This document shows positions 16,587-43,084 of a DNA stretch of 63,202 nucleotides, piece after piece. The stretch comes from a virus (lineage: Duplodnaviria; Caudoviricetes). Made by a program: the position numbers and the translations under genes. The stretch covers positions 1 through 63,202 of the IMG/VR virus record IMGVR_UViG_3300030329_003706, one strand, 5' to 3'. The notes under the pieces were generated by a model. The model was not told the origin of the DNA. It saw only the letters and a list, made by a program, of their open reading frames with translations, and searched no databases. The stretch's first letter is position 1. Each line of letters begins with the position of its first letter.

Positions 16587-18958
16587 TAGTTTCCTCCTTT
16601 AACTGATTGTTGTGTTCGTTCTCTTGCTATTTGAGCTCTCATATTAGCAATATCCTCTGTTGATTGTATTCGCTCTCTTGCTATGTCGGCTGTATCTTTA
16701 TTTTTCATAGCATCTTGCTGTAACTTTTGTTCATCTACTTGGGCATCTTGGTTAATTTGCTTCTCACGCAAGGCTACCTCTTGTTTCTTAATTTCTACAA
16801 GTGGGTCTTGGTCTGTTTGTGGTGGGTTTTGTTGTTGGAACTCCATTATTAACTGTGCTTGTATTTGTGCGAGCATTTGTGCATGAGCCTCGGGCGGTTG
16901 TTGCTGTGCCTGTGGGTCTTGTGCCATTTGTTGATCATGAACTACTTGTGCTTTCATACCGAGATGTTCGTAAATATGCTTTTCTAATGTCAACAACAAC
17001 GGTGGTTGCATCTGGGCAACCTTACTATTCATATAAGCCAAGTGTACAGCAATATGAGCATCGTGGTCTTGTTGAGGAAATGCCTGTATCTGCGTTTGTC
17101 CTTCTGCGGCTTGACTGGCTTTTTGGTTTTCTGTTGCAGGATCCAATGGCTGTGGTGGCTCTTTCGGGGTCAATATCTGCTCGACATTATTCACACCCAA
17201 TGCTTCATAAACTCGACGGTAAGCCTCGTGCATATTGTGCAATTCTGGAGCCGCAGTCGCCAATTTTAACTGTTCTTGTGCCAAAACCACTCTTTGTGAC
17301 ATACTAAAAATATTAGGGTCACTAACAGGTAATATATCAACACGGTTATCAAAATCTTGTGCCTTAATTTGATTATCCGCACCAACTTCATAAGGATAAG
17401 GGGTAGGATCCTCACCAAATAAAGAACTCAATAACCTTAATTCACTTTTCATACTCGCATGTAACCGTTTATGCACAGCACTAACTATCTTTGCTCCTCT
17501 TTCAAGTAAAGCAATGGTTGTACCTACAGGCATTTCTTGGTTTCCATCCCCAACACCCATATCTGTAGTACCAATAAACTTCTGAGCCGCACTCACCACA
17601 AACCCCATTAACTGAAATAACGTACCAGAAGGTTCTTTATAGGGCAAAGGCATCAAACTTGTGCGTAAATCACCTCCAGGAACATCAACATCTCTAAATT
17701 CTCCTGGAGATAAAGGGTTTTGGTCATCAGCAATACGCAAACCCCGAGCTTTAAATCCCGCAGGCATATTACTCAACGTTCCCGCATCGATTAATTGGCG
17801 TAAATTCGCTGTAGCTGTGCGTGAAAGATTAGAAAGTAGGTGTATTAACCCAAAACCATAAAATCCAAGTCCTGGAGTAAACTTATACTGCACAAAATGG
17901 GGTATTTTATCCTTATTTACATCATCTGGGCGGTAATTTCTGCGTATTGAAAGCACCTCATGGCTTGTTTCACTCACAGTAACTACATAAGGTAACTTAA
18001 TTTCAGTCAATTGACCGCTTTCATCGGTATCTGGGTACTCATCCAAGTCCAAATAACAATGGCACTCATATAAAATCACCTCATCTGAATCATTAGCAGG
18101 GCTAACTCCTTCAAGTTTTTCATACGCTTTCTTAATTTCATTGTTTGGCTCATCACTATCCTTAGAAATATCAATTTCTTTGTAAAAACCCTTTACCTGT
18201 AGCTTCCGAAGGTCATTTTGCGACATACGAATAATATGAGTCACACGGTCAGCAGTCTTTAAATCAACAGCAGTGTACGGTACAATCACATCTTCCGCAG
18301 GTACAAACTTACTAACAGGGCGATTTAATACATCATCTTTATAAATTTTCTTAAAAGTTGATCCCGCCAACCCCAAATAATACAACATCTGGTCAAACTC
18401 TGGCTCATACTCCTCCATCTGGTACATTATCTGGTAATTCATATAATCTTGAACACGCTTCGCCTGCTTTTCCGTTTCGATACTAGGCACTCCTACAATA
18501 TTAGCTCGCACAGGACCACCACTCGGCAACATCTCCTTATATGCTCCTGCCTGAAACTGCGTAACGGCTTCATTCAAAACAGGGTGGATTACACCTGTTG
18601 CTCCATCAAAAGGTTCAGTACGGGACTCATACTTCAAACCAAGCAAATCTAAACCCTTTGTATATGTCTCTACCCACTCCTCTCTACTATTCTTATCCTC
18701 TTCTACGTTTTCAATTACCATAGAAGCAATATCAGTAAGGGTGCTATCCTCTAAATTATCTACTAAGTTATCGAAAAAATCATCAGGTTCAGTACCCATA
18801 ACCTGCTCTTCACCAAAAATAACTTCCGCACCACCATCTTCCGTTTCTATAGCCTCTACTTCAACATCTAAAGGTTGTTCTGCCTCCATCTCCATAGGGG
18901 TAAGCATATCATCTGGGGCTTGCAAAAGTGATCTATCTACATTACTTGGTTTTGCCAT
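16586..18958 (-). CDS. Portal protein
   Basis: 790 aa directly after TerL; EAVTQFQA, PGLGFYGFGL and RQLIDAGTLSN motifs; long Gln-rich C-terminal coiled coil. Confidence 0.88.
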   Translation of the reverse strand: MAKPSNVDRSLLQAPDDMLTPMEMEAEQPLDVEVEAIETEDGGAEVIFGEEQVMGTEPDDFFDNLVDNLEDSTLTDIASMVIENVEEDKNSREEWVETYTKGLDLLGLKYESRTEPFDGATGVIHPVLNEAVTQFQAGAYKEMLPSGGPVRANIVGVPSIETEKQAKRVQDYMNYQIMYQMEEYEPEFDQMLYYLGLAGSTFKKIYKDDVLNRPVSKFVPAEDVIVPYTAVDLKTADRVTHIIRMSQNDLRKLQVKGFYKEIDISKDSDEPNNEIKKAYEKLEGVSPANDSDEVILYECHCYLDLDEYPDTDESGQLTEIKLPYVVTVSETSHEVLSIRRNYRPDDVNKDKIPHFVQYKFTPGLGFYGFGLIHLLSNLSRTATANLRQLIDAGTLSNMPAGFKARGLRIADDQNPLSPGEFRDVDVPGGDLRTSLMPLPYKEPSGTLFQLMGFVVSAAQKFIGTTDMGVGDGNQEMPVGTTIALLERGAKIVSAVHKRLHASMKSELRLLSSLFGEDPTPYPYEVGADNQIKAQDFDNRVDILPVSDPNIFSMSQRVVLAQEQLKLATAAPELHNMHEAYRRVYEALGVNNVEQILTPKEPPQPLDPATENQKASQAAEGQTQIQAFPQQDHDAHIAVHLAYMNSKVAQMQPPLLLTLEKHIYEHLGMKAQVVHDQQMAQDPQAQQQPPEAHAQMLAQIQAQLIMEFQQQNPPQTDQDPLVEIKKQEVALREKQINQDAQVDEQKLQQDAMKNKDTADIARERIQSTEDIANMRAQIARERTQQSVKGGN

Positions 18959-20418
18959 TAATAATATATCCTTTGTACTGGACCACGAGGCTCATCTTCA
19001 TAATCCTCAGGGTGTTGTATAAAACCGCCTTCTCTAAATCTTCGCAAAGCCTGTGTAACAGTATCAACGTAATCATCGTGTTCTCCTGCTGGAAAAGCCG
19101 CACATTCCTCAATTACCTCCTCAGCCCAACGAGTATCTGGACACCATACTAACCCACTTTCTAGCAACGGTGCAATAGAATTTACTCGACTAAATTTATC
19201 ATTTCCTCTACTTGGGCTGTAATTAGTCACTGGAATACCCATGTTTCTTAGCTCTTGGGTCAGCGGCATACCCGAAGCTTTTGCCTCGATTAATACACAT
19301 TCAGGATCCCAATACTTAAACTCCTCTAACGCTCGCCGTCGCAAATCAGGAAAATCCCATCGTCCACGCTTGGCATCAACTAGAATAATGTTTGGTGGTT
19401 TCCCTTCCTCTGGGTAAAAAACACCCCATGTGGTAATCGCACTAAAATCAGCATTAGTCTGCTTACTATACGCCGTATCATAACTCTGCATAACATACTC
19501 CAACGGTGGTAACTCATCCTTCCACGTCTGCCACCAATCACGCTTTAATATCGCCGCTCCCTCACTTGTAGGGTTCTGTTGCCATTGGGCTTCCCACTTA
19601 TTAATAGAAAGTGATCCCTTAACCGATAATAAATCCTCTTTTTTCCAAAATTCTCCCCACAACGGCTCCTCTGTATCAGGCATCAACGCAGGGAATTCAA
19701 CTATCTCCCACTTATCCGCTAATATATCTCTCGCTTGTTGCTTAACCAATTTACCTGTCAAATCGTTTTCTGCCCATCGGGTCATAATCATTACAATACT
19801 CCCTCCTGGTTGTAAACGCTGTCTAGGTCCACTAGTATACCATTCATACGCATGCTCCATAGCCGTCGGCGATAAAGCATCTTGCTCACTGTGGGGGTCA
19901 TCAATAATCAATAAATCCGCACCACGTCCAGTAACCGCACCTCCAACTCCAGCCGCGAAATATTCACCCCCCTTATCCGTCTCCCATCGTCCCGCCGCTT
20001 GGCTATCCGCTCGCAAAGAAACATTGTCGAATATAGCTCCGTATTCACTCGAATTCATCAAATTACGCACCTTACGTCCAAATCTAAATGCCAACTCAGC
20101 CGTATGCGTAGTCTGCATAATCTTTAACTTCGGGTTTCTACCCATCAACCACGCAGGTAGTAAATAACTTCCGAATTCAGATTTCGTGTGTCTCGGTGGC
20201 ATATTCACTATCAATCGCTTTAACTCACCTCGGGCTATACGGTTAAACTTCTCAGCCATTATCTTATGGTGGCGTCCATTTATAAACTCCACCCAAACAG
20301 CCTGTACAAAGCACATAAAATCCTCTCGGGCTTTTTCCGCTTGGTCTAAACTCTTAGCTCTATCCAATAAATGGGCAAACTTCTTAAGGCTTTCCTCAGG
20401 TATACGTTCTAAGTCCAT
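18958..20418 (-). CDS. terL: Terminase large subunit
   Basis: MPPRHTKS Walker A variant; GRGADLLIIDDP Walker B; nuclease motifs SYDTA, DFSA and HDDYVD. Confidence 0.95.
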   Translation of the reverse strand: MDLERIPEESLKKFAHLLDRAKSLDQAEKAREDFMCFVQAVWVEFINGRHHKIMAEKFNRIARGELKRLIVNMPPRHTKSEFGSYLLPAWLMGRNPKLKIMQTTHTAELAFRFGRKVRNLMNSSEYGAIFDNVSLRADSQAAGRWETDKGGEYFAAGVGGAVTGRGADLLIIDDPHSEQDALSPTAMEHAYEWYTSGPRQRLQPGGSIVMIMTRWAENDLTGKLVKQQARDILADKWEIVEFPALMPDTEEPLWGEFWKKEDLLSVKGSLSINKWEAQWQQNPTSEGAAILKRDWWQTWKDELPPLEYVMQSYDTAYSKQTNADFSAITTWGVFYPEEGKPPNIILVDAKRGRWDFPDLRRRALEEFKYWDPECVLIEAKASGMPLTQELRNMGIPVTNYSPSRGNDKFSRVNSIAPLLESGLVWCPDTRWAEEVIEECAAFPAGEHDDYVDTVTQALRRFREGGFIQHPEDYEDEPRGPVQRIYY

Positions 20419-20613
20419 ATTTCCTCTATATATCGAAAATTTTCCAAAGGCAATGAACCTATAATCAATATACAGTGTTCAGGGGGGTAGCAACTTTAAT
20501 AATTTTTCGATTACCCTTGAATCGGAAAAAACATGGTTTTACACGCAAAACCAAGGGAAGAATTCTCGCACAGGGGGGTCGCAAATTTGCAACCGTGCCG
20601 ATGGGTAAAATGG

Positions 20614-20643
20614 GCTAGGGGGTAACCTTAGTTACCCCCTAGC
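20614..20643 (-). terminator. 13-bp perfect hairpin terminator after 20651..21088
   Basis: GCTAGGGGGTAAC-CTTA-GTTACCCCCTAGC. Confidence 0.75.
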
Positions 20644-20650
20644 GTTAAAA

Positions 20651-21088
20651 TTAACTAGCTGTAGGCTGTACAACTAATTTAATGTAGCAAGTACCCCAAT
20701 AGCTACTGCTTGGGCTGTAGCCACCGTTTAAAAGTGCAAACAAGCAATTTGGGTTTTTGGCACTATGACCAAGCTTACTAGCGTTTGCCAAAACGACAGC
20801 CAAACTAGTGTTTGTTTTGTGGGCGTTTAAAATACTATTTTGTATTGTAGCCCTTACGCCTTGCCCACTACCACCGTAGCCAAACGGTGTAGGTTTAGCA
20901 CTACCAAGCTTTACGTTTGATAGTGGTACTATTTGCACATTGGCTAACTGCCCTTGAGCGTGTGTATTTACCCACTTGTAAAAGCTAGTGGCATTGTACG
21001 GCGTTTGACCACACCCTACGCCACCGTAAACGACAGCTTTGGTGCTAACAGCATTTTTACTGTTATTTTTTGGTTTAGTGTTTTGCAT
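20651..21088 (-). CDS. Early protein of unknown function, Asp/Glu-free paralogue of 21863..22324
   Basis: Own promoter, AAGGAG RBS and terminator. Shares PFGYGGS..GVR.TIQ, KLGHS.K.PNC and NGGYSPSS.YWGT.YIKLVVQ with the paralogue. Confidence 0.85.
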   Translation of the reverse strand: MQNTKPKNNSKNAVSTKAVVYGGVGCGQTPYNATSFYKWVNTHAQGQLANVQIVPLSNVKLGSAKPTPFGYGGSGQGVRATIQNSILNAHKTNTSLAVVLANASKLGHSAKNPNCLFALLNGGYSPSSSYWGTCYIKLVVQPTAS

Positions 21089-21129
21089 AATATACTCCTT
21101 TTTGGTTGTTATGCGTTTGCGTTAATATC

Positions 21130-21200
21130 AGAGTAAACGTTTTTTAAAAGCTTGTAAATAGTTTTTTTAACTTTTTTTAACTTTTTTTAATTTTTATTTT
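21130..21200 (-). promoter_or_regulatory. Sigma70-type promoter TTTACA-N17-TACTCT with phased A-tracts (UP-like)
   Basis: -35 at 21153-21158, -10 at 21130-21135, and about four A-tracts at 10-bp period at 21161-21200. Confidence 0.7.
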
Positions 21201-21378
21201 TGATTGATGCGATTGAGTTGAGTTGATTTGACTCATTATATAAAGAGATAGACAGACACAGATGCACACAGATGAACACCTATCCCCTTGCGATGGGAAG
21301 GGAATGGGAGCTATCGCCCCCACACCATATATAGAAAGCCTAAGAATATACCGATACAAAGTAAGAATGCGATTACCA

Positions 21379-21600
21379 TTAGCAATCCTCCCAACCTGGA
21401 GGTCCACTGTACGCTGTTTCCCTTTTTTTAACCTCGCATGGGTCACATAACTCAGTATGCCCACCGTATCCTGTCATGCCACATTTACTAGGGACATGCT
21501 TTGCTTCCTCCCACTCCAATGTTAATGCAGATTGTCCTGCAGGTTTTAGTAAAGTGATAGGTTTACCACAACCTCTAAAATTTCCCATATACCAATTCAT
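21379..21600 (-). CDS. Small Cys-containing early protein
   Basis: AAGGAG RBS and its own promoter at 21642-21682. Confidence 0.65.
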   Translation of the reverse strand: MNWYMGNFRGCGKPITLLKPAGQSALTLEWEEAKHVPSKCGMTGYGGHTELCDPCEVKKRETAYSGPPGWEDC

Positions 21601-21641
21601 TTTGTGCTCCTTTCAATATACACAGTTTGCGTTAATAATTA

Positions 21642-21682
21642 ACATTAACGCACCACGTATCACTGGACTATTCTTATTTACT
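21642..21682 (-). promoter_or_regulatory. Phage promoter, variant (TAGTCC-N17-TAATGT plus AAATAAGA box)
   Basis: Same spacing and upstream box as the TTATCA promoter family. Confidence 0.55.
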
Positions 21683-21700
21683 CAGCAGAAGAGAATCCTT

Positions 21701-21773
21701 GAAGATCTTTCTTGATCTTTCTAGATCTTTCTAGATCTTTATTGATCATATATATGTTTATACATATGATCAA
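21701..21773. repeat. Five GATC-containing decamers plus an inverted repeat
   Basis: GATC at 21704, 21714, 21724, 21734, 21744 and 21768; TTGATCATAT...ATATGATCAA inverted repeat at 21742-21773. Confidence 0.9.
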
Positions 21774-21818
21774 GTCAAATCAAATCTTGTCCTCTTTCAT
21801 CCTCCGGAGATGGGAGTC

Positions 21819-21851
21819 AAAAAAATAGGGGACGCCACCAGACGTCCCCTA
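21819..21851 (-). terminator. Intrinsic terminator after 21863..22324
   Basis: TAGGGGACG...CGTCCCCTA stem plus T7 on the - strand. Confidence 0.8.
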
Positions 21852-21862
21852 AATATTTGAGG

Positions 21863-22324
21863 TTAACCTTGAACCACCAATTTGATGTAAGGAGTTCCCC
21901 AATATTTACTTGATGGGGAGTAACCACCGTTCATCGCGGCGAGCACACAGTTTGGACGTTTTTTACTGTGTCCAAGTTTCGCGGCTTTCGCGAGTACAGT
22001 TTTAAGGGACGTGTCACCATCAACACCAAAAATTATCCAGTCTTGTATGGTTTGACGAACGCCACCTTTTGACCCACCGTATCCAAAAGGCAGTGGCTCA
22101 CTGCCAGTCTTGTCAACATTAGGTAAGCATTCAATTTTGACATTCGCCTCATTGCCTCCTGCTTGCTCAGCAATAAACTTAGTGATGTCGGTGTAATCAA
22201 GAGTCTTGCCGTCCTTAACAACTAACTCTACAGACTTTACGACTGCCTTAGGAGTCGCTGCCTTTGATTTTGGTTTAATGTTATTCATGAGTATCTCCTT
22301 TCTACGAGAATTATTTTTTAACAT
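21863..22324 (-). CDS. Early protein of unknown function, paralogue of 20651..21088 (true start probably MNNIKPK at 22288)
   Basis: AGAAAGGAG RBS before the second Met; own promoter and terminator. Confidence 0.85.
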   Translation of the reverse strand: MLKNNSRRKEILMNNIKPKSKAATPKAVVKSVELVVKDGKTLDYTDITKFIAEQAGGNEANVKIECLPNVDKTGSEPLPFGYGGSKGGVRQTIQDWIIFGVDGDTSLKTVLAKAAKLGHSKKRPNCVLAAMNGGYSPSSKYWGTPYIKLVVQG

Positions 22325-22330
22325 TAATTA

Positions 22331-22380
22331 AGAGTACCATAATAAACGTCACTTGATAAGTCTTTTTTTATCTTATTTTA
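22331..22380 (-). promoter_or_regulatory. Phage promoter TTATCA-N17-TACTCT
   Basis: Member of the repeated family, with upstream AAATAAGA-like boxes. Confidence 0.7.
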
Positions 22381-22484
22381 TCTGTCAAATCAAATCAAAT
22401 CCAGTCATTCTTCTTCTTTCATCATCTATCAGATAACATTCTAAGAGGACGATTGACGAAGATTGATGAACCGTTTTCCCTCCT

Positions 22485-22949
22485 CTATGATGGGAGCTGA
22501 GAAGATTTGATTTTCCCCTCCTTGGTGATGGGAGAAGATGATGTTAGAATATGATTGATGAGACCGTTCCAATCGTAAGGAGATCGGGAACTCCAGTCAG
22601 GGGTTAATGGTCCGTCAATCATGGACTCTCCGCTTATTTCCATCGCTCTACTACCACAAAATATATTTATAGTGGCTGACGAAGGATGCTCAACCAAGTT
22701 CATGACGATTCCAGAATATCCGATATATCTTATCTGCCAAGCGATTTGGTGTGGACTCAGCTTTATATTTTTTAGCGACTTTAACCTATGGACTTTCAAT
22801 TCTAGCCAAAAACTCAGTCCATCTTTAACACCATGCACATCAGGGACACCAGGACTAGACCAGGACTCTAGGCGTGTCCAAAACACACCCAGATCCTTAG
22901 TTCCCTCCCTTAATTTATGCCACAGTTTAGACTCAGGCTTTACGGTCAT
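22485..22949 (-). CDS. PD-(D/E)XK nuclease (VRR-NUC / Holliday junction resolvase-like)
   Basis: ESKLW...RLES...PGVPD...FWLELK...LSPHQIAW. Confidence 0.8.
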   Translation of the reverse strand: MTVKPESKLWHKLREGTKDLGVFWTRLESWSSPGVPDVHGVKDGLSFWLELKVHRLKSLKNIKLSPHQIAWQIRYIGYSGIVMNLVEHPSSATINIFCGSRAMEISGESMIDGPLTPDWSSRSPYDWNGLINHILTSSSPITKEGKIKSSQLPS

Positions 22950-24210: not shown

Positions 24211-24250
24211 ACAATAACAGTTAAGCTGTCTTGTGATAACTCTTTTATTT
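24211..24250 (-). promoter_or_regulatory. Phage promoter TTATCA-N17-TATTGT
   Basis: Family member. Confidence 0.6.
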
Positions 24251-24796
24251 TCCTTTTTTGTCTGGCTCTACGACTTCAGCTTCAATAACCAAATTGTCAT
24301 CACTGATCACACCCAGAGCAGGATACTCTTCTTGAAGTCTTTTGATTTCTTTCATAACCTCGTCTTTACTCATCTGATCAATATTTCCATGGAGTATTTC
24401 TTTACGATCAATGTAGAGTCCAGCCGCTTGACCTCTGGATTTTTCAGCCGCGACTGCCGCAGGATAATTGTTGTTCTGCATTGCTAGATCACGTATTTCT
24501 GCAAGTTTTTTTACATGTCCCTCAAAAGTCACCTCATACTTACGGGACAACTCTTGCTTTAACTCCCGAATTCTTTCAACAACATGGGGGTATCGTTGTC
24601 CGTTTAATAGTTGGGAGGCGATTGCATGGGCAGATTTCTCAGAGTATCCTGCTTTGAGAGCCGCTTCTGTCTGGGAAACATCTTCACAAACATAGATTCT
24701 ACAAAACTCCTCCTGTTTGGGTGTGATGCTTTTTTCTGTCCGTGGATTTCCCACGACAGACAGTGTATGTTTGTGAGTTGCTTTTGCGATTGCCAT
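24245..24796 (-). CDS. terS: Terminase small subunit
   Basis: ITPKQEEFCRIY...QTEAALKAGYSEKSAHAIASQLL helix-turn-helix typical of TerS. Confidence 0.85.
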   Translation of the reverse strand: MAIAKATHKHTLSVVGNPRTEKSITPKQEEFCRIYVCEDVSQTEAALKAGYSEKSAHAIASQLLNGQRYPHVVERIRELKQELSRKYEVTFEGHVKKLAEIRDLAMQNNNYPAAVAAEKSRGQAAGLYIDRKEILHGNIDQMSKDEVMKEIKRLQEEYPALGVISDDNLVIEAEVVEPDKKGK

Positions 24797-24883
24797 TTTG
24801 TTACTCCTCCTCCGAGCTGATGGGATACTTTGTATAATAGGGCAGATTTCAAATCATGTTAATTTTTATTTTATCAAAATTAA

Positions 24884-31907: not shown

Positions 31908-32472
31908 TTATAATCTCCTGTACTTGCTGAAATTCATCCAGTTTTCTATAGTTTTCTTGCAAATAGTTAATTCCCTTTATGAAAACATCTTCCGCAAGAG
32001 AATTTCCTGTTTGCATTAGTCTATAACAATGGAGAATAAGTTCAAGCTTATCTGCTATATCGCATAAAGATTTTTCAAGCACCGTTACTTTATAGATTCT
32101 ACTACCCACCCCTATTTTATCTTCATGGTCGTTTTCCACTTGTTCCATTAATTTATTCAGCTGTGGGTATTTCCACTTAGTCGTTGCAGGCATATCCCCT
32201 GTTTCTGCTTCTGCCACATCATGATACATTAGGTGAATCATGCAGTTTTTACTTACGTCAGGAAAAAGTGTTTGTAAAATAACCATCGCCCTCCATGTAT
32301 GAGCGGCGACATTCTGCCCCTCTGATAACTCTGGTCGAGTATGGTAGCGAACAACATGTCCTGCTTTTAGACGTTCGTGTAGTCTTTGCAAAATAAGTGC
32401 TTTGCTGAATTTAAGTCGTATTGATTTTAAGTCAACATCTGGCTGTGTTGACTCTTGAGTCCTCTTGTCCAT
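31837..32472 (-). CDS. HD-domain phosphohydrolase (YfbR-like 5'-deoxynucleotidase)
   Basis: VVRYHT...QNVAAHTW...YHDVAEAETGDMPATTK...ADKLE. Start placed at the GGAG-preceded ATG 32472 (track start 32508). Confidence 0.85.
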   Translation of the reverse strand: MDKRTQESTQPDVDLKSIRLKFSKALILQRLHERLKAGHVVRYHTRPELSEGQNVAAHTWRAMVILQTLFPDVSKNCMIHLMYHDVAEAETGDMPATTKWKYPQLNKLMEQVENDHEDKIGVGSRIYKVTVLEKSLCDIADKLELILHCYRLMQTGNSLAEDVFIKGINYLQENYRKLDEFQQVQEIINAITLKNKEPSTVQTTLENLYKL

Positions 32473-34343
32473 GGCTTCTCCGTAAATGTTTGTTTTGCCT
32501 CCCCCCAATTTGGTCCAAATTCAGCGTCAACTACTGAGGGAACTTCTAGTTGGACGCAGTTTTCCATGATTTCTGTGATTTGTTTAGCCTGTTGTTCGTC
32601 CTCTACAGAAATATCTAGTTCATCGTGAACTTGAATCATGGGTAGTATACCTTCTTCCGCTAATGCGACCATCGCCGCTTTTGTTTGATCAGCCGCTGAC
32701 CCTTGTATCAGTTTATTCAAGGCTTTATATGTAAACGCTCTTTTGATGGCAGGACCATGCTCTCCGTAAGCTTCTTGGTAGCTCATGGGTTTCCAACTTC
32801 CATATTTGTTAGGCTCCCATTTATCGAATCTACAACGCCTCCCTAACAAAGTGCGTATAACCCCCCGATTACTCGCTCTATTTGAGGTGTATTCACTTAA
32901 TTCTCTTACAAAAGGCACTTTGTCGTGGTAGGTGGAGAATAAATCTTGAGCATCTTCGTATTCGAGTCCTAAACTAGCGGCGAGTTTCTTACTTCCCATA
33001 CCATAAAACAGTCCTAAGTTAATGTCTTTGGCTTGTTTGCGTGGAACTCCTACAATATCAGCCGCCATTTGGTGGAAATCTGTTCTTGCGTTTTGGTTGT
33101 ATTGCTCAGAGAACTCTGAAGCCCCTCTGAACCCCATCAACTTAGCATAATGAACAACTATGCGTGGTTCTTGGCTAGAGTAGTCGAACGCACCCCATAA
33201 GGCTCCTTCTTCTGGTAAGAATAGGCTACGTATCATTGGTCCAATTTCACCATGCCTAGCAGGGATTTGTTGTAGGTTTGGATTGCTGTAGCTAAACCTA
33301 CCTGTGACTGTACCCCCTTGATCGCTTCTCAAGGGGTGTAGCTCAGCGTGAATACGTCCATTCACCTGATGTTTTAAAACGGTGTCTACAAAAGTAGACC
33401 TTGCTTTTTGATATTCACGAGCCTGCACTATCATTTTAGGTATTTCATGGGGGTGATTAGCTAAAAATCCTTTAGTAAAAGAAGGAGCTTCGGTTTTTTC
33501 TGTTTTGGTGTAGCTAAGATTTAAAGAATCAAACACTTTTGCCACACTTTCGGCTGACCAGATTTCTACTGCAACCCCTGTCTTTTTAAGAATAGTCGTT
33601 AGAAGATTATTTTCCCTAACTAATAAATCTTCTTTTATCTTCTCTGCTTTGTCTAGGTCTACTCTAACTCCTCTTTGTCTCATAGGAATAATGGTTTTTA
33701 AAACTTTAAGCTCTAAATTAAAGATATCCTGAATGTCCTCCTTAATAATTAAGGATTTAAAGTGCTTCCATAACCTTAATGTAAGCGAGGCATCTTGTTC
33801 TGCGTATTTGCCTACATGAGCCGCAGGGAGTTTATACATTTCGCTTTTTGCATTTACTCCAAAAGCTTCGGCGGCTTCTCTTAATTCAACCTCACTTTTA
33901 CGCTCTTGTAGGTAATCTCTTCCCAAAGCATTTAGAGCATAACTAAACCTGTTCTCATCTAGTAAAGGAGCAACAACCATTGTGTCAACAATTCTGCCGT
34001 GAATGGTTACGTTTTCAGCGAGTAACCAACCGACATCGTAAGGAGCATTGTGGAAAATGTAATCTCGGTCTATTTTACAAACAGAAGCTAACCACTTTAA
34101 TGTCATATCGGGATCGAAATTAGGTCCGATTTCGTGGCGAATGGGAAAATACCATTGGTCTCCTTCTACAGCTACGGCTACTCCTATTATACAGCCATCT
34201 TTTCTAGCCCAACCACTTCCCATAGAGGAAAGATTAGGATCTTTGGTTTCAAGATCTATTGATACTTCTTTAGCATGACTTAAATCTGGGTAGCCATCTG
34301 GCATAACCCATTCAGTCGGGGGTTGAAATAGGGGGTACTGCAT
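32427..34343 (-). CDS. polA: DNA polymerase family A with 3'-5' exonuclease
   Basis: DLET, HNAPYD and YAEQD exonuclease motifs; TGRFS..NPNLQQIP; DYSSQEPR; RKQAKDINLGLFYG; VHDEL. Confidence 0.97.
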   Translation of the reverse strand: MQYPLFQPPTEWVMPDGYPDLSHAKEVSIDLETKDPNLSSMGSGWARKDGCIIGVAVAVEGDQWYFPIRHEIGPNFDPDMTLKWLASVCKIDRDYIFHNAPYDVGWLLAENVTIHGRIVDTMVVAPLLDENRFSYALNALGRDYLQERKSEVELREAAEAFGVNAKSEMYKLPAAHVGKYAEQDASLTLRLWKHFKSLIIKEDIQDIFNLELKVLKTIIPMRQRGVRVDLDKAEKIKEDLLVRENNLLTTILKKTGVAVEIWSAESVAKVFDSLNLSYTKTEKTEAPSFTKGFLANHPHEIPKMIVQAREYQKARSTFVDTVLKHQVNGRIHAELHPLRSDQGGTVTGRFSYSNPNLQQIPARHGEIGPMIRSLFLPEEGALWGAFDYSSQEPRIVVHYAKLMGFRGASEFSEQYNQNARTDFHQMAADIVGVPRKQAKDINLGLFYGMGSKKLAASLGLEYEDAQDLFSTYHDKVPFVRELSEYTSNRASNRGVIRTLLGRRCRFDKWEPNKYGSWKPMSYQEAYGEHGPAIKRAFTYKALNKLIQGSAADQTKAAMVALAEEGILPMIQVHDELDISVEDEQQAKQITEIMENCVQLEVPSVVDAEFGPNWGEAKQTFTEKPWTRGLKSQHSQMLT

Positions 34344-36582: not shown

Positions 36583-37677
36583 TTAAATACGCCCCTCAAA
36601 AAAGCTTAAATACTGTTTTCCTATAACTTTTGGGCTGTGTAGAGCTAATGCCTTGCTACCGTTCTCTCTATAAAAAGATAAAGGCGTTGAAGTAGAAGAG
36701 TACTGTGTTCCCATCACTCCTGCGTTAGATGCTACTCCCATACTCTTTCTGGGTATAGAATCGTTGGGGGAATCTATACTGTTTATAAGTTCAGCTAATT
36801 CTTCTGCTGTGCTTACGACTAAACAATTGATATCTGGCTTCATATCGTCTGGCTCATCCAGTAACCACTTAGAATGAATAATAGGAATACATCCTGCGTT
36901 CCATGCTTCAAGCCAAGTGTACTGTGTTCCCCCTCCATCGCCTACTATTTGGGTCATATCTACATTAAAGATATATTTTTTCATAAGGTTAAACGCATGA
37001 TCATTTTCTCTTGGGTAGTGAGCCTTAGACTGTACCCATTCAGGATACTTAGGCACTATCTTAAAGCGAGTGTATATTCTGTTTTCAAATCCCCTTATGT
37101 TTATTTTCTTGTTATCTGGTAATAAACGGTTAGCATCAAGCAAAACTTCTGTGTGCTTATCAAAATCTATTCTAGAAGTACTGATAGCAATTCCTCCACG
37201 AGTGCTTATATTGTTTGGGGTTTGAGAAGTAAAGGGGGAGTAGGGGTGTCTTATGAAAGTAGAACCCTTTAATGTCCTTGCCCCAATTTGTCTTATACTG
37301 ATACACCTATTGGGATCTAAGTTTTCAGGCAAGTTTTTCAACTCAGTAGGATCATGCACCACTATGAAAGCACCGTTGTCATATAGCTGTTGTGTTTGTT
37401 CCTTGAACTGTTTGGCTCCTGCGACAACAAGCTTAATCTCTGATCGCATAGAATTACTTGAAAAGTTACCATTGTATTTGTTAAAAACATCATCCAAAGA
37501 AATGTTTTGGTACTTTTTCCCATACCCAAAATCTCTTTGAAACTTTTCTGATTTTGGACGAACCTTGTAAAGATAAGGGGTAATCCCCACTTCTTTTAGT
37601 GCGTCCATAAGGTGACTGGTATAAGTTACCCAACCTCCATAGGGATTGGGACTTAAATAAAATAAATTTGCTCTCAT
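36583..37677 (-). CDS. GT-B fold glycosyltransferase
   Basis: N-terminal YGGWVTY, HDPTE, SRIDFDKH and GGGTQYTWLEAWNAGCIPI (GT4-like E.x.G motif). Confidence 0.75.
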   Translation of the reverse strand: MRANLFYLSPNPYGGWVTYTSHLMDALKEVGITPYLYKVRPKSEKFQRDFGYGKKYQNISLDDVFNKYNGNFSSNSMRSEIKLVVAGAKQFKEQTQQLYDNGAFIVVHDPTELKNLPENLDPNRCISIRQIGARTLKGSTFIRHPYSPFTSQTPNNISTRGGIAISTSRIDFDKHTEVLLDANRLLPDNKKINIRGFENRIYTRFKIVPKYPEWVQSKAHYPRENDHAFNLMKKYIFNVDMTQIVGDGGGTQYTWLEAWNAGCIPIIHSKWLLDEPDDMKPDINCLVVSTAEELAELINSIDSPNDSIPRKSMGVASNAGVMGTQYSSTSTPLSFYRENGSKALALHSPKVIGKQYLSFFEGRI

Positions 37678-40043: not shown

Positions 40044-41561
40044 TCAGGCTGTTAACGAATACCCTTGACTGAACATAGGGTGTATTAAATGTAGCCTATC
40101 GGTAGCTCTTGTTAATCCCACATAAAAAACTCTAGCCTCGTCATCTTCGTAGTTATTAATCTTCCTCCACATACTGTATGGTCTTCTCATTGTATCTGTT
40201 AAAAGCATTACATTTGTAGCTTGAGCTCCTTTAGCAGAATGAATGGTAGAGATTCGTATTCTAGGAGTCTTAGTTAAACTTTCTCCTTTTCGCAAACAAG
40301 CCTTTATGTAAATTCTATCTCTTTCACTTATTTTGCCTAACCCTGTCTCCCATGAATGGGAGTGTAATAGTCCATGATCCTTTTGCAAATCTTCTAAACT
40401 ATAGAAAACACCATCTTCACCATCAGGCATTGTTTTACTGCCATAGGTAATTTGACTATTCAACATCATATGTTTATACACAAGTCGTACTTGATCAGCA
40501 TCTAACCTGTTTCCTTGCCTAAGTGATTCCCACAACCTAACAGCCTCTAGTACTCTACTATCTATACTCTTTGAGCCGTTATAAATATATAGGTGTCCTC
40601 TTCTGCGAACTTCTTCCTCTATTTGTTGAGCTCCACGAGTGGTTCTGCTTAACAGTAGCCAATCCCCACTACTTAAATCAACTTCTTCAGAATGACGATG
40701 CCAATAAATATTTCCTTCTATTTCTTTTGGTTGAAAAATCTTTTCTCTTCTTCCTACTATAGTTTTTATTACATGATGACTAAGCTTGTGATGAGAAGAT
40801 GGAATCCTGTAGGACTTATCTAGTAGAGTTACTTTACCCTCTAATCCCACAAAATGTTCTACATCTGCTCCTGCATAACGAAAAATAGCTTGGTCATCAT
40901 CTCCTGCTACATAGCAGATTTTACTGTTTTGTTCTAGCATATTAACCATCTCCCATTGAATGGGAGACAAATCCTGTGCTTCGTCAATAAACACAGCTTC
41001 TAACTTTGGGCAAAGACCGTTTTCAATAAATGTTTCAAGCATACCTGCATAGTCTTGTAAGCCATAAGAAGTTTTCCAATATGCCAAACCACGAGCAACA
41101 TATTCTACTCTAGCCCAGTCCGTTTTCAAAGGCACAGTGCTATCGTTGTATATCTTGCGTAAAGGTTGGCGTAATACCCGAGCCATGTTTATAATTTCTA
41201 AAAACTTATCGCCATAACCAAAGTCCTTGTACGGACCTTGCTCCATAACTGTTCCTGTGTAGAATTTTCCTATCTTTAACCAATCAGCCACTTCTTGATA
41301 TTTTTCAGGCGTAATGATTTGGGAGTGTGTTAACCCTGACATCATAAAGGCAAGACTGTGTAATGTCCTAAAATAGGGGAGCTCTTTCTTTGATAAATTA
41401 AACTTTTCACATGCTCGGTCTACTGCCTCTGTTGCGGCTCTTCTTGTAAAGGCAAAATAGCCTATTCTATCAGGAGCGACTCCTGAGGTTAAATACTGCT
41501 CTACTAAACTGAGTAGTTTTGTTGTTTTTCCTGTTCCAGGAGGACCTAATACAATCTGCAC
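40044..41561 (-). CDS. UvrD/Rep-like SF1 helicase
   Basis: GPPGTGKT, DEAQD, GDDDQAIF, STIHSAKG and YVGLTRA motifs. Confidence 0.93.
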   Translation of the reverse strand: MQIVLGPPGTGKTTKLLSLVEQYLTSGVAPDRIGYFAFTRRAATEAVDRACEKFNLSKKELPYFRTLHSLAFMMSGLTHSQIITPEKYQEVADWLKIGKFYTGTVMEQGPYKDFGYGDKFLEIINMARVLRQPLRKIYNDSTVPLKTDWARVEYVARGLAYWKTSYGLQDYAGMLETFIENGLCPKLEAVFIDEAQDLSPIQWEMVNMLEQNSKICYVAGDDDQAIFRYAGADVEHFVGLEGKVTLLDKSYRIPSSHHKLSHHVIKTIVGRREKIFQPKEIEGNIYWHRHSEEVDLSSGDWLLLSRTTRGAQQIEEEVRRRGHLYIYNGSKSIDSRVLEAVRLWESLRQGNRLDADQVRLVYKHMMLNSQITYGSKTMPDGEDGVFYSLEDLQKDHGLLHSHSWETGLGKISERDRIYIKACLRKGESLTKTPRIRISTIHSAKGAQATNVMLLTDTMRRPYSMWRKINNYEDDEARVFYVGLTRATDRLHLIHPMFSQGYSLTA

Positions 41562-43084
41562 TAAATTATACCTTCTCCTGCAGGAAGCTCAGGTAACGGT
41601 ATTTGATCTTGGTCATCATTGAAAAACTCTTGTGGTAACGACCAAACATGAATTCCCTTTCCTCTCACTCTCCAAAACATTTTTTCTGCCTGTATATCCT
41701 GCAGTCTTAATGTTATTTTATTAGAAGTGTAGTGGTTAAAGTCGTTTACAGATAAATGCTTTTTTACGTCTTTTACTTGAAAATAAACTCTACCTTCAAC
41801 CCAAACAGCTACACCTTGAAGTATATCTTCTCGTTCCTCCCCTTTAGCTCTTTCTGAACAGAACGCATGAAGCAAGTCTTCAAACTCACCTTTTAGTGTA
41901 GCATCTGGTGGAACTTCTACAATAGTTAAATTATCCAATAAAAGCTGTATTCTGGTTTGCCATGCTCTCTGGTTCACTGCTATAGGAAATTTGTTAATTT
42001 GGGAAACACATTCCTTTTGAAACTGAGCTTGACTGGTCAACCCATTAGTGCTTAATTCCACACGTTGACCATCTACATTTAATATCCATATAGGGGGGTC
42101 ACCATCTATTTTGGTAAGACTAGACATATCGTTACCAACCCCTGAAGGACCAACACCATACTTCCTACTTTTACATACCTCTTTATCACAAAAGGGCTTT
42201 ATAGGTTGGTCTTCACATTTATAAAAATAATCTTTTTTCTTTAATTGCCGAATAACAACACCCACCTCATTATGAGAAAGGGGAGGCTTTAGGTAATCCA
42301 TATTATATTTCTGCACCAACACTTCCCAATCATCTTCGTTATACATTCTTGCATAAACACCCAAGTTGAATAGGGCATTGTTCCGTGAGCCTTCCCCAAA
42401 ACCCTTACTGCATAGATGCTGTAGGCAAGGAGGACCTTCCTTTAGTATACCTTCTTTTGTGCCAAAACTCATTGTTAACTTACGGAACTTGGCAGGAGTG
42501 ATAACAAAAGGTTTTGCATATTCTAAAAACTCTTGTACCTGTAAAGCTTTACCCTCGTCATCAAAAGCATACCTAGTGGTTTTATCGCTTCCGTGATAAG
42601 GCATATTTAAGAAATTTCCTGTGTCACCCCTATCTAATAAAATAGTTGTTTGTTTGGGAAATATTTCACTGCCCGAAAATCCTAGAGCCGCACTCAGCTC
42701 TATCATTTTCCTTTGCATTTCCTCTGCTTCAATAGTCTGTGTTAAAAATATCCATATATGAGCTCCCCCTGATTTTGTTCTTCCCACAATGGCAGGGATA
42801 TTATTAGCTCTTAAAGTGGTGACTAATTGTTTATGGTTAATGTCATATTTGTCTATATCTATAGCACCCCATTGACAGGTGTTGTCACTACGAATGGGGA
42901 TTATTCCTAGCCCTGTGCCTCCCTTAAGATGTTCTTCCCACATAGCAATAGTGGTCGATTCTCTTATAACTTTAGCCGTTCCTTGTTTCTTACCATCAGA
43001 TCGGCGTGTGCTAACAACATATGTTCCATGAGCAATATCACTACCTAAAAATAAATAGAAAAATTGTTGTGCGAGTGATGTCAT
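41561..43084 (-). CDS. Primase (AEP-type with PriCT domain)
   Basis: WGAIDID, TKSGGAH, NLPY-like NMPY, PPCL and EGSRNNALF motifs. Confidence 0.85.
   Translation of the reverse strand: MTSLAQQFFYLFLGSDIAHGTYVVSTRRSDGKKQGTAKVIRESTTIAMWEEHLKGGTGLGIIPIRSDNTCQWGAIDIDKYDINHKQLVTTLRANNIPAIVGRTKSGGAHIWIFLTQTIEAEEMQRKMIELSAALGFSGSEIFPKQTTILLDRGDTGNFLNMPYHGSDKTTRYAFDDEGKALQVQEFLEYAKPFVITPAKFRKLTMSFGTKEGILKEGPPCLQHLCSKGFGEGSRNNALFNLGVYARMYNEDDWEVLVQKYNMDYLKPPLSHNEVGVVIRQLKKKDYFYKCEDQPIKPFCDKEVCKSRKYGVGPSGVGNDMSSLTKIDGDPPIWILNVDGQRVELSTNGLTSQAQFQKECVSQINKFPIAVNQRAWQTRIQLLLDNLTIVEVPPDATLKGEFEDLLHAFCSERAKGEEREDILQGVAVWVEGRVYFQVKDVKKHLSVNDFNHYTSNKITLRLQDIQAEKMFWRVRGKGIHVWSLPQEFFNDDQDQIPLPELPAGEGII

What the first reader, a model, noticed from the sequence alone, without database searches (positions are those of the whole stretch)
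21201..22500. TC/GA-saturated spacers between the first early units
Seen: right next to the TC-free unit the composition reverses. 21201-21310 reads TGATTGATGCGATTGAGTTGAGTTGATTTGACTC..GAGATAGACAGA. 21685-21820 and 22380-22500 (TCAAATCAAATCAAATCCAGTCATTCTTCTTCTTTCATCATCTATC..GACGATTGACGAAGATTGATGAA) are similarly dense. Each sits just upstream of a promoter, and GATGGGA recurs at the distal edges (about 21292, 21809, 22489, 22527). Inference: if TC is the modified context these are densely modified patches that could act as transcription insulators, staged-ejection stops or decoys for a reader protein.
Basis: partly seen in the sequence, partly recalled or inferred. Interest (0 to 1): 0.75.

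Follow-up and report, generated by a model that had tools for sequence, protein, structure and literature searches.

The report
Phased repeat islands between phage gene cassettes
Two short non-coding stretches in a marine phage genome are the most TC/GA-rich DNA in the genome because they are built from small repeats spaced exactly one DNA turn apart, a design kept in dozens of related phages and probably a docking platform for a still unknown protein.

Summary
Windows 22385-22504 and 21690-21809 are the two highest TC+GA windows of the whole 63,202-bp phage genome, and they lie beside its lowest stretch (20601-21201). Spacer 21201-21310 is only in the top 1%. In 30 of 33 dereplicated relatives the locus-wide TC+GA maximum sits at the same place, after the p154 nuclease-like gene. 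In 16 of 25 a second peak follows the parB-like gene.

The islands are not compositional noise. GA/TC positions repeat at exactly 10 bp in 28 of 33 islands, against 1.8% of control windows. GAT/ATC and TGA/TCA are the enriched cores. About half the relatives share an ATCAATCATCCTCG-type unit in inverted blocks; others use GATC or other units. CCCATY..GAGGA boxes copy the terS leader, and an AT-rich palindrome is often present.

My best reading (0.4) is a phased protein-binding array between a terminator and the next promoter. A densely modified patch, a pac site and a replication origin remain open. Island density is unchanged in relatives whose neighbouring gene is not TC-depleted. No modification data exist. 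Other first readers of this scan noted the same architecture on related genomes.

The parts
22376..22560 (-). Island 3. It runs from the TC-rich 3' end of the p154 gene (stop at 22485) through a non-coding array to the promoter boxes of the parB-like gene. It is the highest TC+GA stretch of the genome.
   Evidence: density 0.242-0.25; lag-10 autocorrelation 0.43; same position in 30 of 33 relatives
22481..22532 (-). Two CCCATC-N-GGAGG boxes 38 nt apart (22514-22532 and 22481-22494). On the + strand they read GATGGGAG at 22527 and 22489.
   Evidence: (D8, D16). The same box lies in the terS leader at 24824.
22384..22466 (-). Repeat block: TCAATC at 22461-22466 and 22451-22456 (10 nt apart), GATGAAAGA at 22415-22423, and (GATTT)3GAC ending in TTGATTTGAC at 22384-22393.
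22331..22379 (-). Predicted promoter of the parB-like gene: A-rich boxes AAAATAAGATAAAAAAAGA, then -35 TTATCA, a 17-nt spacer and -10 TACTCT.
   Evidence: The same GACTTnnn-17-TAyTCT layout was found in 21 of 33 relatives. Not mapped experimentally.
21863..22324 (-). parB-like gene (153 aa, my nickname), the paralogue with normal composition. It is a basic protein of a virus-only family.
21819..21851 (-). Intrinsic terminator of the parB-like gene (11-bp stem, T7 tail).
21680..21818 (-). Island 2: CCCATC..GGAGGA box (21800-21814), GATGAAAGA (21793-21801), TTGATTTGAC (21774-21783), a 32-nt AT-rich palindrome carrying two TTGATCA (21742-21773), and four AAAGATCW units at exact 10-nt spacing (21703-21740).
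   Evidence: D1; lag-10 autocorrelation 0.49. A 10-nt deletion variant occurs in another sample.
21642..21679 (-). Predicted weak promoter of the p73 unit: AAATAAGA box, TAGTCC, 17-nt spacer, TAATGT.
21195..21330 (-). Spacer 1, a weaker island that is TC-rich on the sense strand only. It holds CCCATTCCCTTCCCATC..GGGGA, CATCTGTGT twice, GTCAAATCAA (the third genomic copy of TTGATTTGAC, inverted) and TCAATC twice.
   Evidence: lag-10 autocorrelation only 0.17
21130..21188 (-). TC/GA-poor version of the family promoter for the parA-like gene: three A7GTT boxes at 10-nt spacing, TTTACA, 17-nt spacer, TACTCT.
   Evidence: (D4)
20615..21088 (-). parA-like gene (20651-21088, 145 aa, no Asp or Glu) and its terminator hairpin (20615-20642). 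This is the TC/GA-depleted unit that the islands adjoin.
22485..22949 (-). p154, a PD-(D/E)xK / VRR-NUC-like protein. The nuclease motif is my reading of the sequence. Its last ~25 codons form the TC-rich left arm of island 3.
   Evidence: PHROG 2165, E 8e-14; PHROG 93

Best explanation
The islands are conserved, composite control regions that separate small promoter-gene-terminator cassettes lying between the small and large terminase genes. Each island is built from short repeats with a GAT or TGA core (TCAATC/GATTGA, GATGA, GATC, GATTT). The repeats sit at a strict 10-bp period, often as blocks of opposite orientation. With them come CCCATY..GAGGA boxes that copy the start of the terS transcript and, after the parB-like gene, an AT-rich palindrome. 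TC/GA saturation is the compositional footprint of these repeats.

I read the arrays as clustered binding sites for a DNA-binding protein, of phage or host, not identified. This protein would coat the stretch between the terminator of one cassette and the A-tract/-35 region of the next promoter. It would so set the strength or timing of that promoter and insulate it from the unit upstream, just ahead of the late terL operon.

Shown: the composition, the periodicity, the shared motifs, the position relative to predicted terminators and promoters, the conservation across relatives, and unit-number polymorphism in nature.

Inferred: that a protein binds, that the effect is on transcription, and that the TC step (possibly a hypermodified T) is part of what is recognised.
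For: - Genome-wide extremes of TC+GA at 22385-22504 and 21690-21809.
- The position is conserved. In 30 of 33 dereplicated relatives the 100-nt maximum of the whole 4-13 kb locus lies at the p154 3' end or the p154-parB spacer. In 16 of 25 two-paralogue relatives the spacer after the parB-like gene exceeds everything outside the block.
- Exact 10-bp periodicity of GA/TC positions. Mean lag-10 autocorrelation is 0.32, against -0.17 and -0.15 at lags 9 and 11. It exceeds 0.2 in 28 of 33 islands and in 1.8% of 660 control windows. The window values are 0.49 and 0.43.
- Motif content. GAT/ATC is 3.2x and TGA/TCA 2.8x enriched (32 and 33 of 33 islands), and the GC dinucleotide is at 0.16x in 33 of 33. 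GATTGA/TCAATC is 12.6x, GATGA 5x and GATC 4.3x enriched.
- Shared units. TCATCCTC occurs in the spacers of 18 of 32 loci and in the rest of none of them. TCAATCAT occurs in 18 of 32 and ATGATTGA in 16 of 32.
- Within this genome TTGATTTGAC occurs 3 times, against 0.15 expected, once in each spacer.
- CCCATY boxes reach 6.8 per kb inside the islands against 0.25 per kb outside. The same box lies just downstream of the predicted terS promoter in this phage and many relatives.
- A perfect palindrome of 9 bp or more lies 45-195 nt after the parB-like stop in 13 of 25 loci. The shuffle mean is 5.5 bp.
- The layout is terminator, island, then A-tract boxes and -35.
- Natural variants differ by exactly one 10-nt unit (also L004).
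Against: - No binding protein is identified.
- Close relatives (terL 80-89% identical) use at least four different repeat types: TCAATCATCC, TTGATC, GATTACGACGGAGAGA and GGATTCGTGA. This needs either a co-evolving binder or selection on composition itself.
- The arrays are not phase-locked to the -35 element across 21 anchored loci. Between-locus R is 0.235 with p about 0.3 at period 10. The only nominal signal is p about 0.01 at period 11, among six periods tried.
- The seven other promoters of the same family in this genome follow coding sequence and have no such array, so the arrays are not needed for promoter function as such.
- The neighbouring paralogue's AlphaFold2 model (pLDDT 87.7) gives only weak winged-helix-like matches (best Z 5.1). 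That is below the level that means more than a common arrangement.
- A TC/GA-free transcription unit 100-1,200 nt away in the same phages shows that something in this system reads the bare dinucleotide. A sequence-specific binder does not explain that.
Confidence: 0.4

Rival explanations
1. T followed by C is the context that this phage's thymidine-hypermodification enzymes act on. The islands would then be stretches where bulky modified bases line one face of the helix every 10 bp. They would work through that density, as a transcription insulator, as a barrier to host proteins or nucleases, or as a platform or decoy for a reader of the modified base. The parA-like unit next door would be kept free of modification.
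For: - The genome's TC/GA extremes of both signs lie side by side.
- The depleted unit is conserved. 17 of 32 dereplicated relatives have 0-1 TC/GA sites in 440-600 nt.
- Different repeat units in different relatives all keep 2.4x GA/TC enrichment (33 of 33).
- The phage encodes a thymidylate-synthase homologue, a protein of the 5-hmdU DNA kinase helical-domain family, an FkbM methyltransferase and a 364-aa protein of no Pfam family.
- The kinase-family protein and the synthase homologue are each present in all relatives tested: 10 of 10 and 5 of 5.
- Passages of PMC6449724 infer a TG or TC context for this class of modification. Passages of PMC13229309 report an NTC preference for a phage T-dioxygenase.
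- In partly depleted units ATC and TCT are the contexts lost most (12% against 22%, and 8% against 22%). ATC/GAT is the most enriched trinucleotide in the islands.
Against: - There are no modification data.
- No TET/JBP family match is found in the genome.
- TG/CA behaves neutrally (0.96x in islands; 1.26-1.27 in depleted units), so the published TG/TC rule does not fit as it stands.
- Island density does not change with the depletion state of the parA-like gene.
- The modifying enzyme between the kinase-family gene and the synthase gene is swapped between relatives. The 364-aa protein occurs in 3 of 10. A GT4-like protein of about 435 aa sits there in 7, with a weak Pfam match (best E 4.6e-6; near or below the curated cut-offs) in 5 of those 7. 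The islands persist in all.
- The conserved 12-14-mer, the leader-like boxes and the palindrome are not explained by composition.
Confidence: 0.2
2. The islands are a packaging recognition (pac) region. The terminase would bind the arrays between terS and terL. This is comparable to the phage P1 pac site, where clustered TGATCA/G hexamers flank the cut and their modification state gates cleavage.
For: - The location is between terS (24245-24796) and terL (18958-20418).
- Six GATC in 73 nt include two TTGATCA.
- TTGATC arrays at a 10-nt period occur in several sub-lineages.
- Blocks of opposite orientation surround a central palindrome.
- A passage of PMC10028697 describes the P1 pac site as 161 bp with seven TGATCA/G repeats. 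A passage of PMC6449724 describes its gating by methylation.
- One relative's record carries the same gene fragment at both ends, as a circularly permuted assembly would.
- Contig ends cluster 100-300 nt upstream of terL: 8 of 79, about four times the density elsewhere.
Against: - There are two or three islands per genome, 0.5-1.2 kb apart, rather than one site.
- They lie 1.7-3 kb downstream of terS, not inside it.
- No D12-class (Dam-type) methyltransferase is found in the phage.
- Many relatives have no GATC in the island (9 of 33).
- The contig-end cluster lies at the far edge of the depleted unit, not in the islands. It could reflect strain variability.
- No raw reads were available to map ends.
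Confidence: 0.15
3. The islands are replication origins or origin auxiliary elements. Iteron-like arrays and an AT-rich palindrome next to a promoter would help open the DNA.
For: - Iteron-like repeats at a helical period.
- An AT-rich palindrome at a conserved distance (13 of 25 loci).
- A-tract blocks and promoters directly adjacent.
- GATCTTTCTn units that resemble the GATC-led AT-rich 13-mers of the E. coli origin (my recollection, not a tool result).
Against: - The polymerase, primase and helicase genes lie 10-25 kb away.
- No skew inflection is seen, although with every gene on one strand that test is weak.
- No initiator gene is adjacent.
- There are several islands per genome.
Confidence: 0.12
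4. The islands have little sequence-specific function. They would be slippage-prone low-complexity DNA, or C-rich, G-poor loading sites for Rho-dependent termination behind the p154 and parB-like genes, with the purine-rich half serving the opposite strand.
For: - The sense-strand TC count peaks at 28 and 24 per 200 nt against a genome mean of 7.5, right after gene ends.
- Unit-number polymorphism occurs in nature.
- RNA folding is unremarkable (z from +0.07 to -2.5 for 8 islands), as expected for unstructured loading sites.
Against: - Positional conservation in 30 of 33 relatives.
- Exact 10-bp phasing.
- Conserved units found only in the spacers.
- The purine-rich halves are G-rich and C-poor on the transcript, and the palindrome and boxes are extra parts. 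None of these is expected of neutral DNA or of a simple Rho site.
Confidence: 0.08

Closest known systems
Phage P1 pac site (clustered TGATCA/G hexamers whose adenine methylation gates terminase cleavage)
   Same: It is a short region near the terminase genes packed with GATC-containing hexamers in two blocks. The density of a base modification is what is read (passages of PMC10028697 and PMC6449724). Island 2 has six GATC in 73 nt, including two TTGATCA. Several relatives carry TTGATC arrays.
   Different: The islands are intergenic, not inside terS, and there are two or three per genome. 9 of 33 relatives have no GATC in the island. No Dam-type methylase is found in the phage. No ends have been mapped.
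Iteron and centromere-like repeat arrays next to promoters (plasmid R1 parC, plasmid and lambda origin iterons) - recalled, not retrieved here
   Same: Several copies of a 10-11-bp unit at helical spacing flank or precede a promoter, with an AT-rich segment and a palindrome nearby. The unit sequence differs between relatives while the architecture stays.
   Different: No cognate binding protein or initiator gene is adjacent or identified. The units here share a GAT/TGA core and an almost complete lack of the GC dinucleotide. They lie beside a gene purged of the same dinucleotides.
Sequence-context-limited thymidine hypermodification (5-hmdU kinase pathway of phages M6, ViI and PhiW-14; phage T-dioxygenase 5mYOX97)
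   Same: The phage carries a thymidylate-synthase homologue and a 5-hmdU kinase helical-domain protein. The published contexts are TG/TC (PMC6449724, passages) and NTC (PMC13229309, passages).
   Different: TG is neutral here. No dioxygenase is found. Neither paper, in the passages I read, describes local islands or modification-free genes.
Base J (glucosyl-hydroxymethyluracil) marking transcription boundaries in kinetoplastids; SPO1 TF1 binding to hydroxymethyluracil DNA - both recalled
   Same: A modified thymine, concentrated at particular sites, is read to stop or tune transcription.
   Different: One is a eukaryotic system and the other a Bacillus phage system. No homologous reader was found here. 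My searches returned only passing mentions of TF1.
Promoter-stem-loop cassettes of T4-type phages (mobile promoter-gene-terminator units) - recalled
   Same: Small genes each have their own promoter and terminator and are exchanged between relatives. Here p73 is replaced by other small ORFs.
   Different: Those cassettes are not known to me to carry phased TC/GA-rich arrays.

Membership tests
Phased protein-binding repeat array (iteron/operator type) | Three or more copies of a short unit within about 150 bp | tested here: met
   Four AAAGATCW units, two TCAATC, three GATTT and two CCCATC boxes in the window. Comparable arrays occur in relatives.
Phased protein-binding repeat array (iteron/operator type) | Spacing at about one helical turn | tested here: met
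   Lag-10 autocorrelation exceeds 0.2 in 28 of 33 islands and in 1.8% of 660 controls.
Phased protein-binding repeat array (iteron/operator type) | A cognate binding protein | not testable with these tools
   None identified. The neighbouring paralogue gives only weak winged-helix-like structural matches (Z 5.1 or less).
Phased protein-binding repeat array (iteron/operator type) | Fixed register relative to the regulated promoter | tested here: inconclusive
   Across 21 anchored loci, R is 0.235 with p about 0.3 at period 10, and p about 0.01 at period 11, among six periods tried.
P1-type pac site | Clustered TGATCA/G hexamers in two blocks within about 160 bp | tested here: inconclusive
   The window's island 2 has six GATC in 73 nt, two of them as TTGATCA. 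24 of 33 relatives have at least one GATC in the island region and 9 have none.
P1-type pac site | Site lies within the small terminase gene | tested here: not met
   The islands are intergenic, 1.7-3 kb downstream of terS.
P1-type pac site | Phage-encoded Dam-type methyltransferase | tested here: not met
   PF02086 finds no match in the 63,202-bp record at E up to 0.1. Host enzymes are unknown.
P1-type pac site | Packaging cut mapped at the site | not testable with these tools
   All 24 runs listed are kept as contigs only. No starts or ends were reported.
Lambda-type replication origin | Iterons plus an AT-rich segment plus a palindrome | tested here: met
   The palindrome is present in 13 of 25 relatives.
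Lambda-type replication origin | Location in or beside the initiator or replication genes | tested here: not met
   The polymerase gene is at 32427-34343 and the helicase and primase genes at 40044-43084.
Lambda-type replication origin | Strand-composition switch at the site | tested here: inconclusive
   No inflection in cumulative GC skew. All genes but one lie on one strand, which swamps the signal.
Context-specific thymidine hypermodification target | Phage encodes a hypermodification pathway | tested here: met
   PF00303 (E 1.4e-21), PF18723 (E 1.1e-51) and PF05050 (E 2.1e-12).
Context-specific thymidine hypermodification target | The enzyme acts on T in TC context | not testable with these tools
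   There is only published analogy (PMC6449724, PMC13229309). TG, the other published context, is neutral here.
Context-specific thymidine hypermodification target | Modified bases mapped to the islands | not testable with these tools
   No raw reads or native-DNA data were available.

The most novel reading that the evidence does not exclude
The islands are epigenetic sensors built from hypermodified thymine. T in TC context is the modified site, and the arrays place many such bases on the helix at a 10-bp period. A phage protein, perhaps the basic parB/parA-like paralogues or the terminase, reads whether that patch is modified (virion or mature DNA) or still bare (freshly replicated DNA). 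It would then switch the adjacent promoters, or license packaging. The neighbouring TC-free paralogue unit is the modification-blind copy that works in either state. This would be the thymidine-hypermodification counterpart of Dam-gated switches such as the P1 pac site.
Probability: 0.15. Interest if true: 0.85.

Novelty: new variant of a known kind. Interest (0 to 1): 0.6.

Why it matters
Phased repeat arrays next to promoters are familiar. A clade-wide pairing of the most TC/GA-rich DNA in a genome with a whole transcription unit purged of the same dinucleotides is not something I found described. These phages are abundant marine viruses that carry a thymidine-hypermodification operon.

If the TC step is the modified context, the islands give a ready-made natural test object. 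They could show how hypermodified bases are placed and read, and whether phages use them to time transcription or packaging rather than only to resist restriction. If it is not, the arrays still define a conserved regulatory or packaging element, with its conserved units, in an uncultured phage group. That helps annotate the terS-terL interval in several hundred related metagenomic contigs: 436 terL matches were found, of which I examined 80.

Tried and rejected
RNA structure. Eight islands folded as RNA gave z-scores from +0.07 to -2.5. Only the palindrome of island 2 stands out, so the TC-arm/GA-arm dyad is compositional and not a conserved long hairpin. RNAalifold on 15 palindrome windows found only 4 pairs, because the MAFFT alignment was not in register. 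I replaced it with a per-locus palindrome search against shuffles.

Promoter register. No convincing phase-lock of the arrays to the -35 element.

Link to the modification operon. The kinase-family protein is present in 10 of 10 relatives tested and the synthase homologue in 5 of 5 tested, so neither discriminates. The 364-aa protein is in 3 of 10 relatives, all with a depleted parA-like gene. The GT4-like substitute is in 7, of which 5 are non-depleted and 2 depleted. Counting the window, that is 4 of 4 against 2 of 7. The sample is small, phylogenetically dependent and not clean.

Function of the paralogues. Pfam and PHROGs gave nothing. The AlphaFold2 model has pLDDT 87.7. Foldseek against PDB and BFVD found nothing at E 0.001 or better. 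VIA-align gave a best Z of 5.1 with many winged-helix rows at Z 3-4, too weak to name a fold. The Atlas returned only virus-only clusters of hypothetical proteins.

Sequencing runs. No RNA holder is listed, and all 24 runs are kept as contigs, so neither expression nor DNA ends could be read.

Cultured relatives. The phage collection gave only terL matches of 64-67% identity in 4 records. Pelagibacter phage HTVC027P shows neither a depleted unit nor an island in its terS-terL interval.

GC skew showed no inflection.

Graded TC depletion into terL was a lead from notes on other genomes. In this window the sense-strand TC count is low across the whole late region (about 3-6 per 200 nt), with no clear gradient.

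GATC sites inside terS sit at conserved Asp codons (nt 388 and 418), so I do not read them as a pac signal.

Literature. The tables of PMC6449724 and PMC13229309 that list contexts could refine the TC/TG question.
Full report
**What the window is.** The window is a complete 63,202-bp virus record with nearly all genes on the minus strand. The finding lies between the small terminase gene (24245-24796, PF03592 E 3e-15) and the large terminase gene (18958-20418).

Read on the minus strand, the order is as follows:
- terS and several small genes
- p154, a nuclease-like protein (PHROG 2165)
- spacer 3
- a 153-aa gene I call parB-like
- a terminator
- spacer 2
- p73
- spacer 1
- a 145-aa paralogue I call parA-like, with its terminator
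- a 230-nt spacer
- terL and the portal gene

**Checking the observation.** TC+GA density in 120-nt windows has mean 0.109 and sd 0.026. The three highest windows of the genome are 22385-22504 (0.25), 21690-21809 (0.242) and 22526-22645 (0.217). The lowest are 20606-21095 (0 to 0.017).

Only 0.96%, 0.09% and 0.06% of same-length windows reach these values. Outside 20300-22800 the maximum is 0.199-0.209. Spacers 2 and 3 are thus beyond anything else in the genome, and they rank first and second of 22 intergenic regions. Spacer 1 is high but not exceptional, and it is one-stranded (18 GA against 2 TC on the + strand).

GATGGGA is at the four stated places. The depleted zone 20601-21201 has 9 TC/GA sites in 601 nt and covers the whole parA-like unit, promoter and terminator included.

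**Relatives.** A terL search gave 436 related stretches, of which 80 loci were kept. A search with the parB-like protein gave 9. The order terS, p154, parB-like, parA-like, terL is conserved.

Of 61 loci holding p154 and its downstream DNA, 33 remained after removing near-duplicates. In 30 of these 33 the highest 100-nt TC+GA window of the entire locus (0.22-0.30) lies at the p154 3' end or in the spacer behind it. Among 25 loci with two paralogues, 16 have a second peak behind the parB-like gene that exceeds everything outside the block.

The parA-like gene is depleted to 0-1 TC/GA sites in 17 of 32 relatives. It is partly depleted in others and close to normal in about 8. Island density is the same in the depleted and the non-depleted groups.

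**Anatomy.** The islands are built from repeats.
- GA/TC positions recur at exactly 10 bp. The mean autocorrelation is 0.32 at lag 10, -0.17 at lag 9 and -0.15 at lag 11. It exceeds 0.2 in 28 of 33 islands and in 1.8% of 660 control windows.
- Enrichment is for GAT/ATC (3.2x) and TGA/TCA (2.8x). The GC dinucleotide is almost absent (0.16x in 33 of 33) and TG/CA is neutral.
- More than half of the relatives share an ATCAATCATCCTCG-type unit and its complement. TCATCCTC is in the spacers of 18 of 32 loci and in the rest of none. The unit is often arranged as blocks of opposite orientation.
- Other sub-lineages use TTGATC, GATTACGACGGAGAGA or GGATTCGTGA units.

In the window the units are as follows:
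- TCAATC twice
- GATGAAAGA
- (GATTT)3GAC
- four AAAGATCW units at 10-nt spacing
- a 32-nt AT-rich palindrome carrying two TTGATCA
- TTGATTTGAC, whose only three genomic copies lie one in each spacer (0.15 expected)

CCCATY-N-GAGGA boxes open each island. They reach 6.8 per kb inside against 0.25 per kb outside. The same box lies just downstream of the predicted terS promoter (TTAACA-17-TATTAT) and includes the terS ribosome-binding site, in this phage and in many relatives.

A perfect palindrome of 9 bp or more lies behind the parB-like terminator in 13 of 25 loci, against a shuffle mean of 5.5 bp. Its sequence differs between loci.

Downstream of each island come A-rich boxes at 10-nt spacing and a promoter-like element. 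The layout GACTTnnn-17-TAyTCT recurs in 21 of 33 relatives. The promoter of the parA-like gene is a TC/GA-poor version of the same design, with A7GTT boxes and TTTACA-17-TACTCT.

A contig from another study lacks exactly one 10-nt unit of the GATC array.

**What it does.** The strict helical period, the shared units, the fixed position between a terminator and the next promoter, and the extra parts fit a nucleoprotein platform. I give 0.4 to a protein-binding array that tunes or insulates the adjoining promoters.

Against this reading:
- No binder is known.
- The unit types differ between close relatives.
- The arrays are not in a common register with the -35 element.
- The other seven promoters of the family do without them.

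Published work infers a TG/TC context for 5-hmdU-kinase-type modification (PMC6449724, passages read) and an NTC context for a phage T-dioxygenase (PMC13229309, outline, one section and passages read). The phage has a thymidylate-synthase homologue and a kinase-family helical-domain protein. A bare-dinucleotide reader is needed anyway to explain the depleted unit. However, no dioxygenase is present, TG is neutral, the islands do not depend on the depletion, and the enzyme next to the kinase-family gene is swapped among relatives without any effect on the islands.

A pac site (0.15) is suggested by the terminase context and by the likeness to the P1 hexamer clusters (PMC10028697, one passage). 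The number of islands, their position and the missing methylase speak against it.

An origin (0.12) fits the iteron, AT-rich segment and palindrome pattern but not the location.

Neutral or Rho-loading DNA (0.08) fits poorly with the conservation.

**Comparison and novelty.** The element works like iteron, operator or pac arrays, but it fails or cannot be tested on the defining features of each named family (see the membership test). I found no description of TC/GA-saturated islands paired with a TC/GA-free unit in phage genomes (searches; listings and abstracts only for most hits). Other first readers of this scan noted the same repeat architecture, and the depleted paralogue, on related genomes. 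Those notes are not independent evidence.

I rate it a new variant of a known kind, with interest 0.6. The mechanism is open, and it gives a direct handle on how hypermodified thymine might be placed and read.

Noticed in passing
20601-21201: The whole parA-like transcription unit (promoter boxes, 5' leader, 145-aa gene without Asp or Glu, terminator) has 9 TC/GA sites in 601 nt. In relatives the equivalent gene ranges from zero sites (17 of 32 with 0-1) through partial depletion to near normal. One relative (L063) has an unrelated but equally TC/GA-free ORF at that place.
   Followed up: partly
21379-21600 and 21330-21378: p73 (Cys-rich, 73 aa) seems to be inserted into a small hydrophobic-peptide ORF. 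The near-identical contig L004 and a contig of run X10 carry the short peptide ORF or a different 183-nt segment instead. Relatives have other small hydrophobic ORFs at this position.
   Followed up: partly
21714 (array 21703-21740): A contig from another study lacks exactly 10 nt, one repeat unit, of the GATC array. L004 also has three units instead of four.
   Followed up: partly
20419-20650; loci L017, L021, L022, L031, L042, L048, L077, L087: Metagenomic contigs of relatives end 100-300 nt upstream of the terL start in 8 of 79 cases, about four times the density of ends elsewhere in the 6 kb upstream. This could mark a physical DNA end or an assembly break at a strain-variable segment. The same spacer carries repeated ACCCCCC motifs and a conserved GGTTCATTGCC before terL, possibly a late promoter.
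   Followed up: partly
24797-24870: Predicted terS promoter (TTAACA-17-TATTAT). Its transcript would begin at about the TCCCATC box and would use the GGAGG of the same box as its ribosome-binding site. The arrangement is conserved in many relatives.
   Followed up: partly
36583-37677; L092-L100: In the hypermodification operon, the 364-aa protein of no Pfam family is replaced in 7 of 10 relatives by a protein of about 435 aa; 5 of those 7 give a weak GT4/GT1 glycosyltransferase match (best E 4.6e-6; near or below the Pfam cut-offs). Counting the window, all 4 genomes with the 364-aa form have a depleted parA-like gene, against 2 of 7 with the GT4-like form.
   Followed up: partly
21863-22324: The parB-like protein folds with high confidence (pLDDT 87.7) but matches no solved or viral predicted structure by Foldseek. 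It has a Lys-rich disordered N-terminal tail, and its C-terminal half resembles winged-helix domains only weakly (Z 5.1 or less).
   Followed up: partly
island cores in 33 relatives; 22376-22560 and 21680-21818 in the window: The GC dinucleotide is almost absent from the islands (0.16x in 33 of 33). It is over-represented in the depleted units (1.79 observed/expected). I have no explanation beyond the repeat content.
   Followed up: no
24297-24416: The highest TC+GA window outside the terS-terL spacers lies in the 3' half of terS. It holds three TGATC(A/G) sites, which fall on conserved Asp codons also present in relatives.
   Followed up: yes
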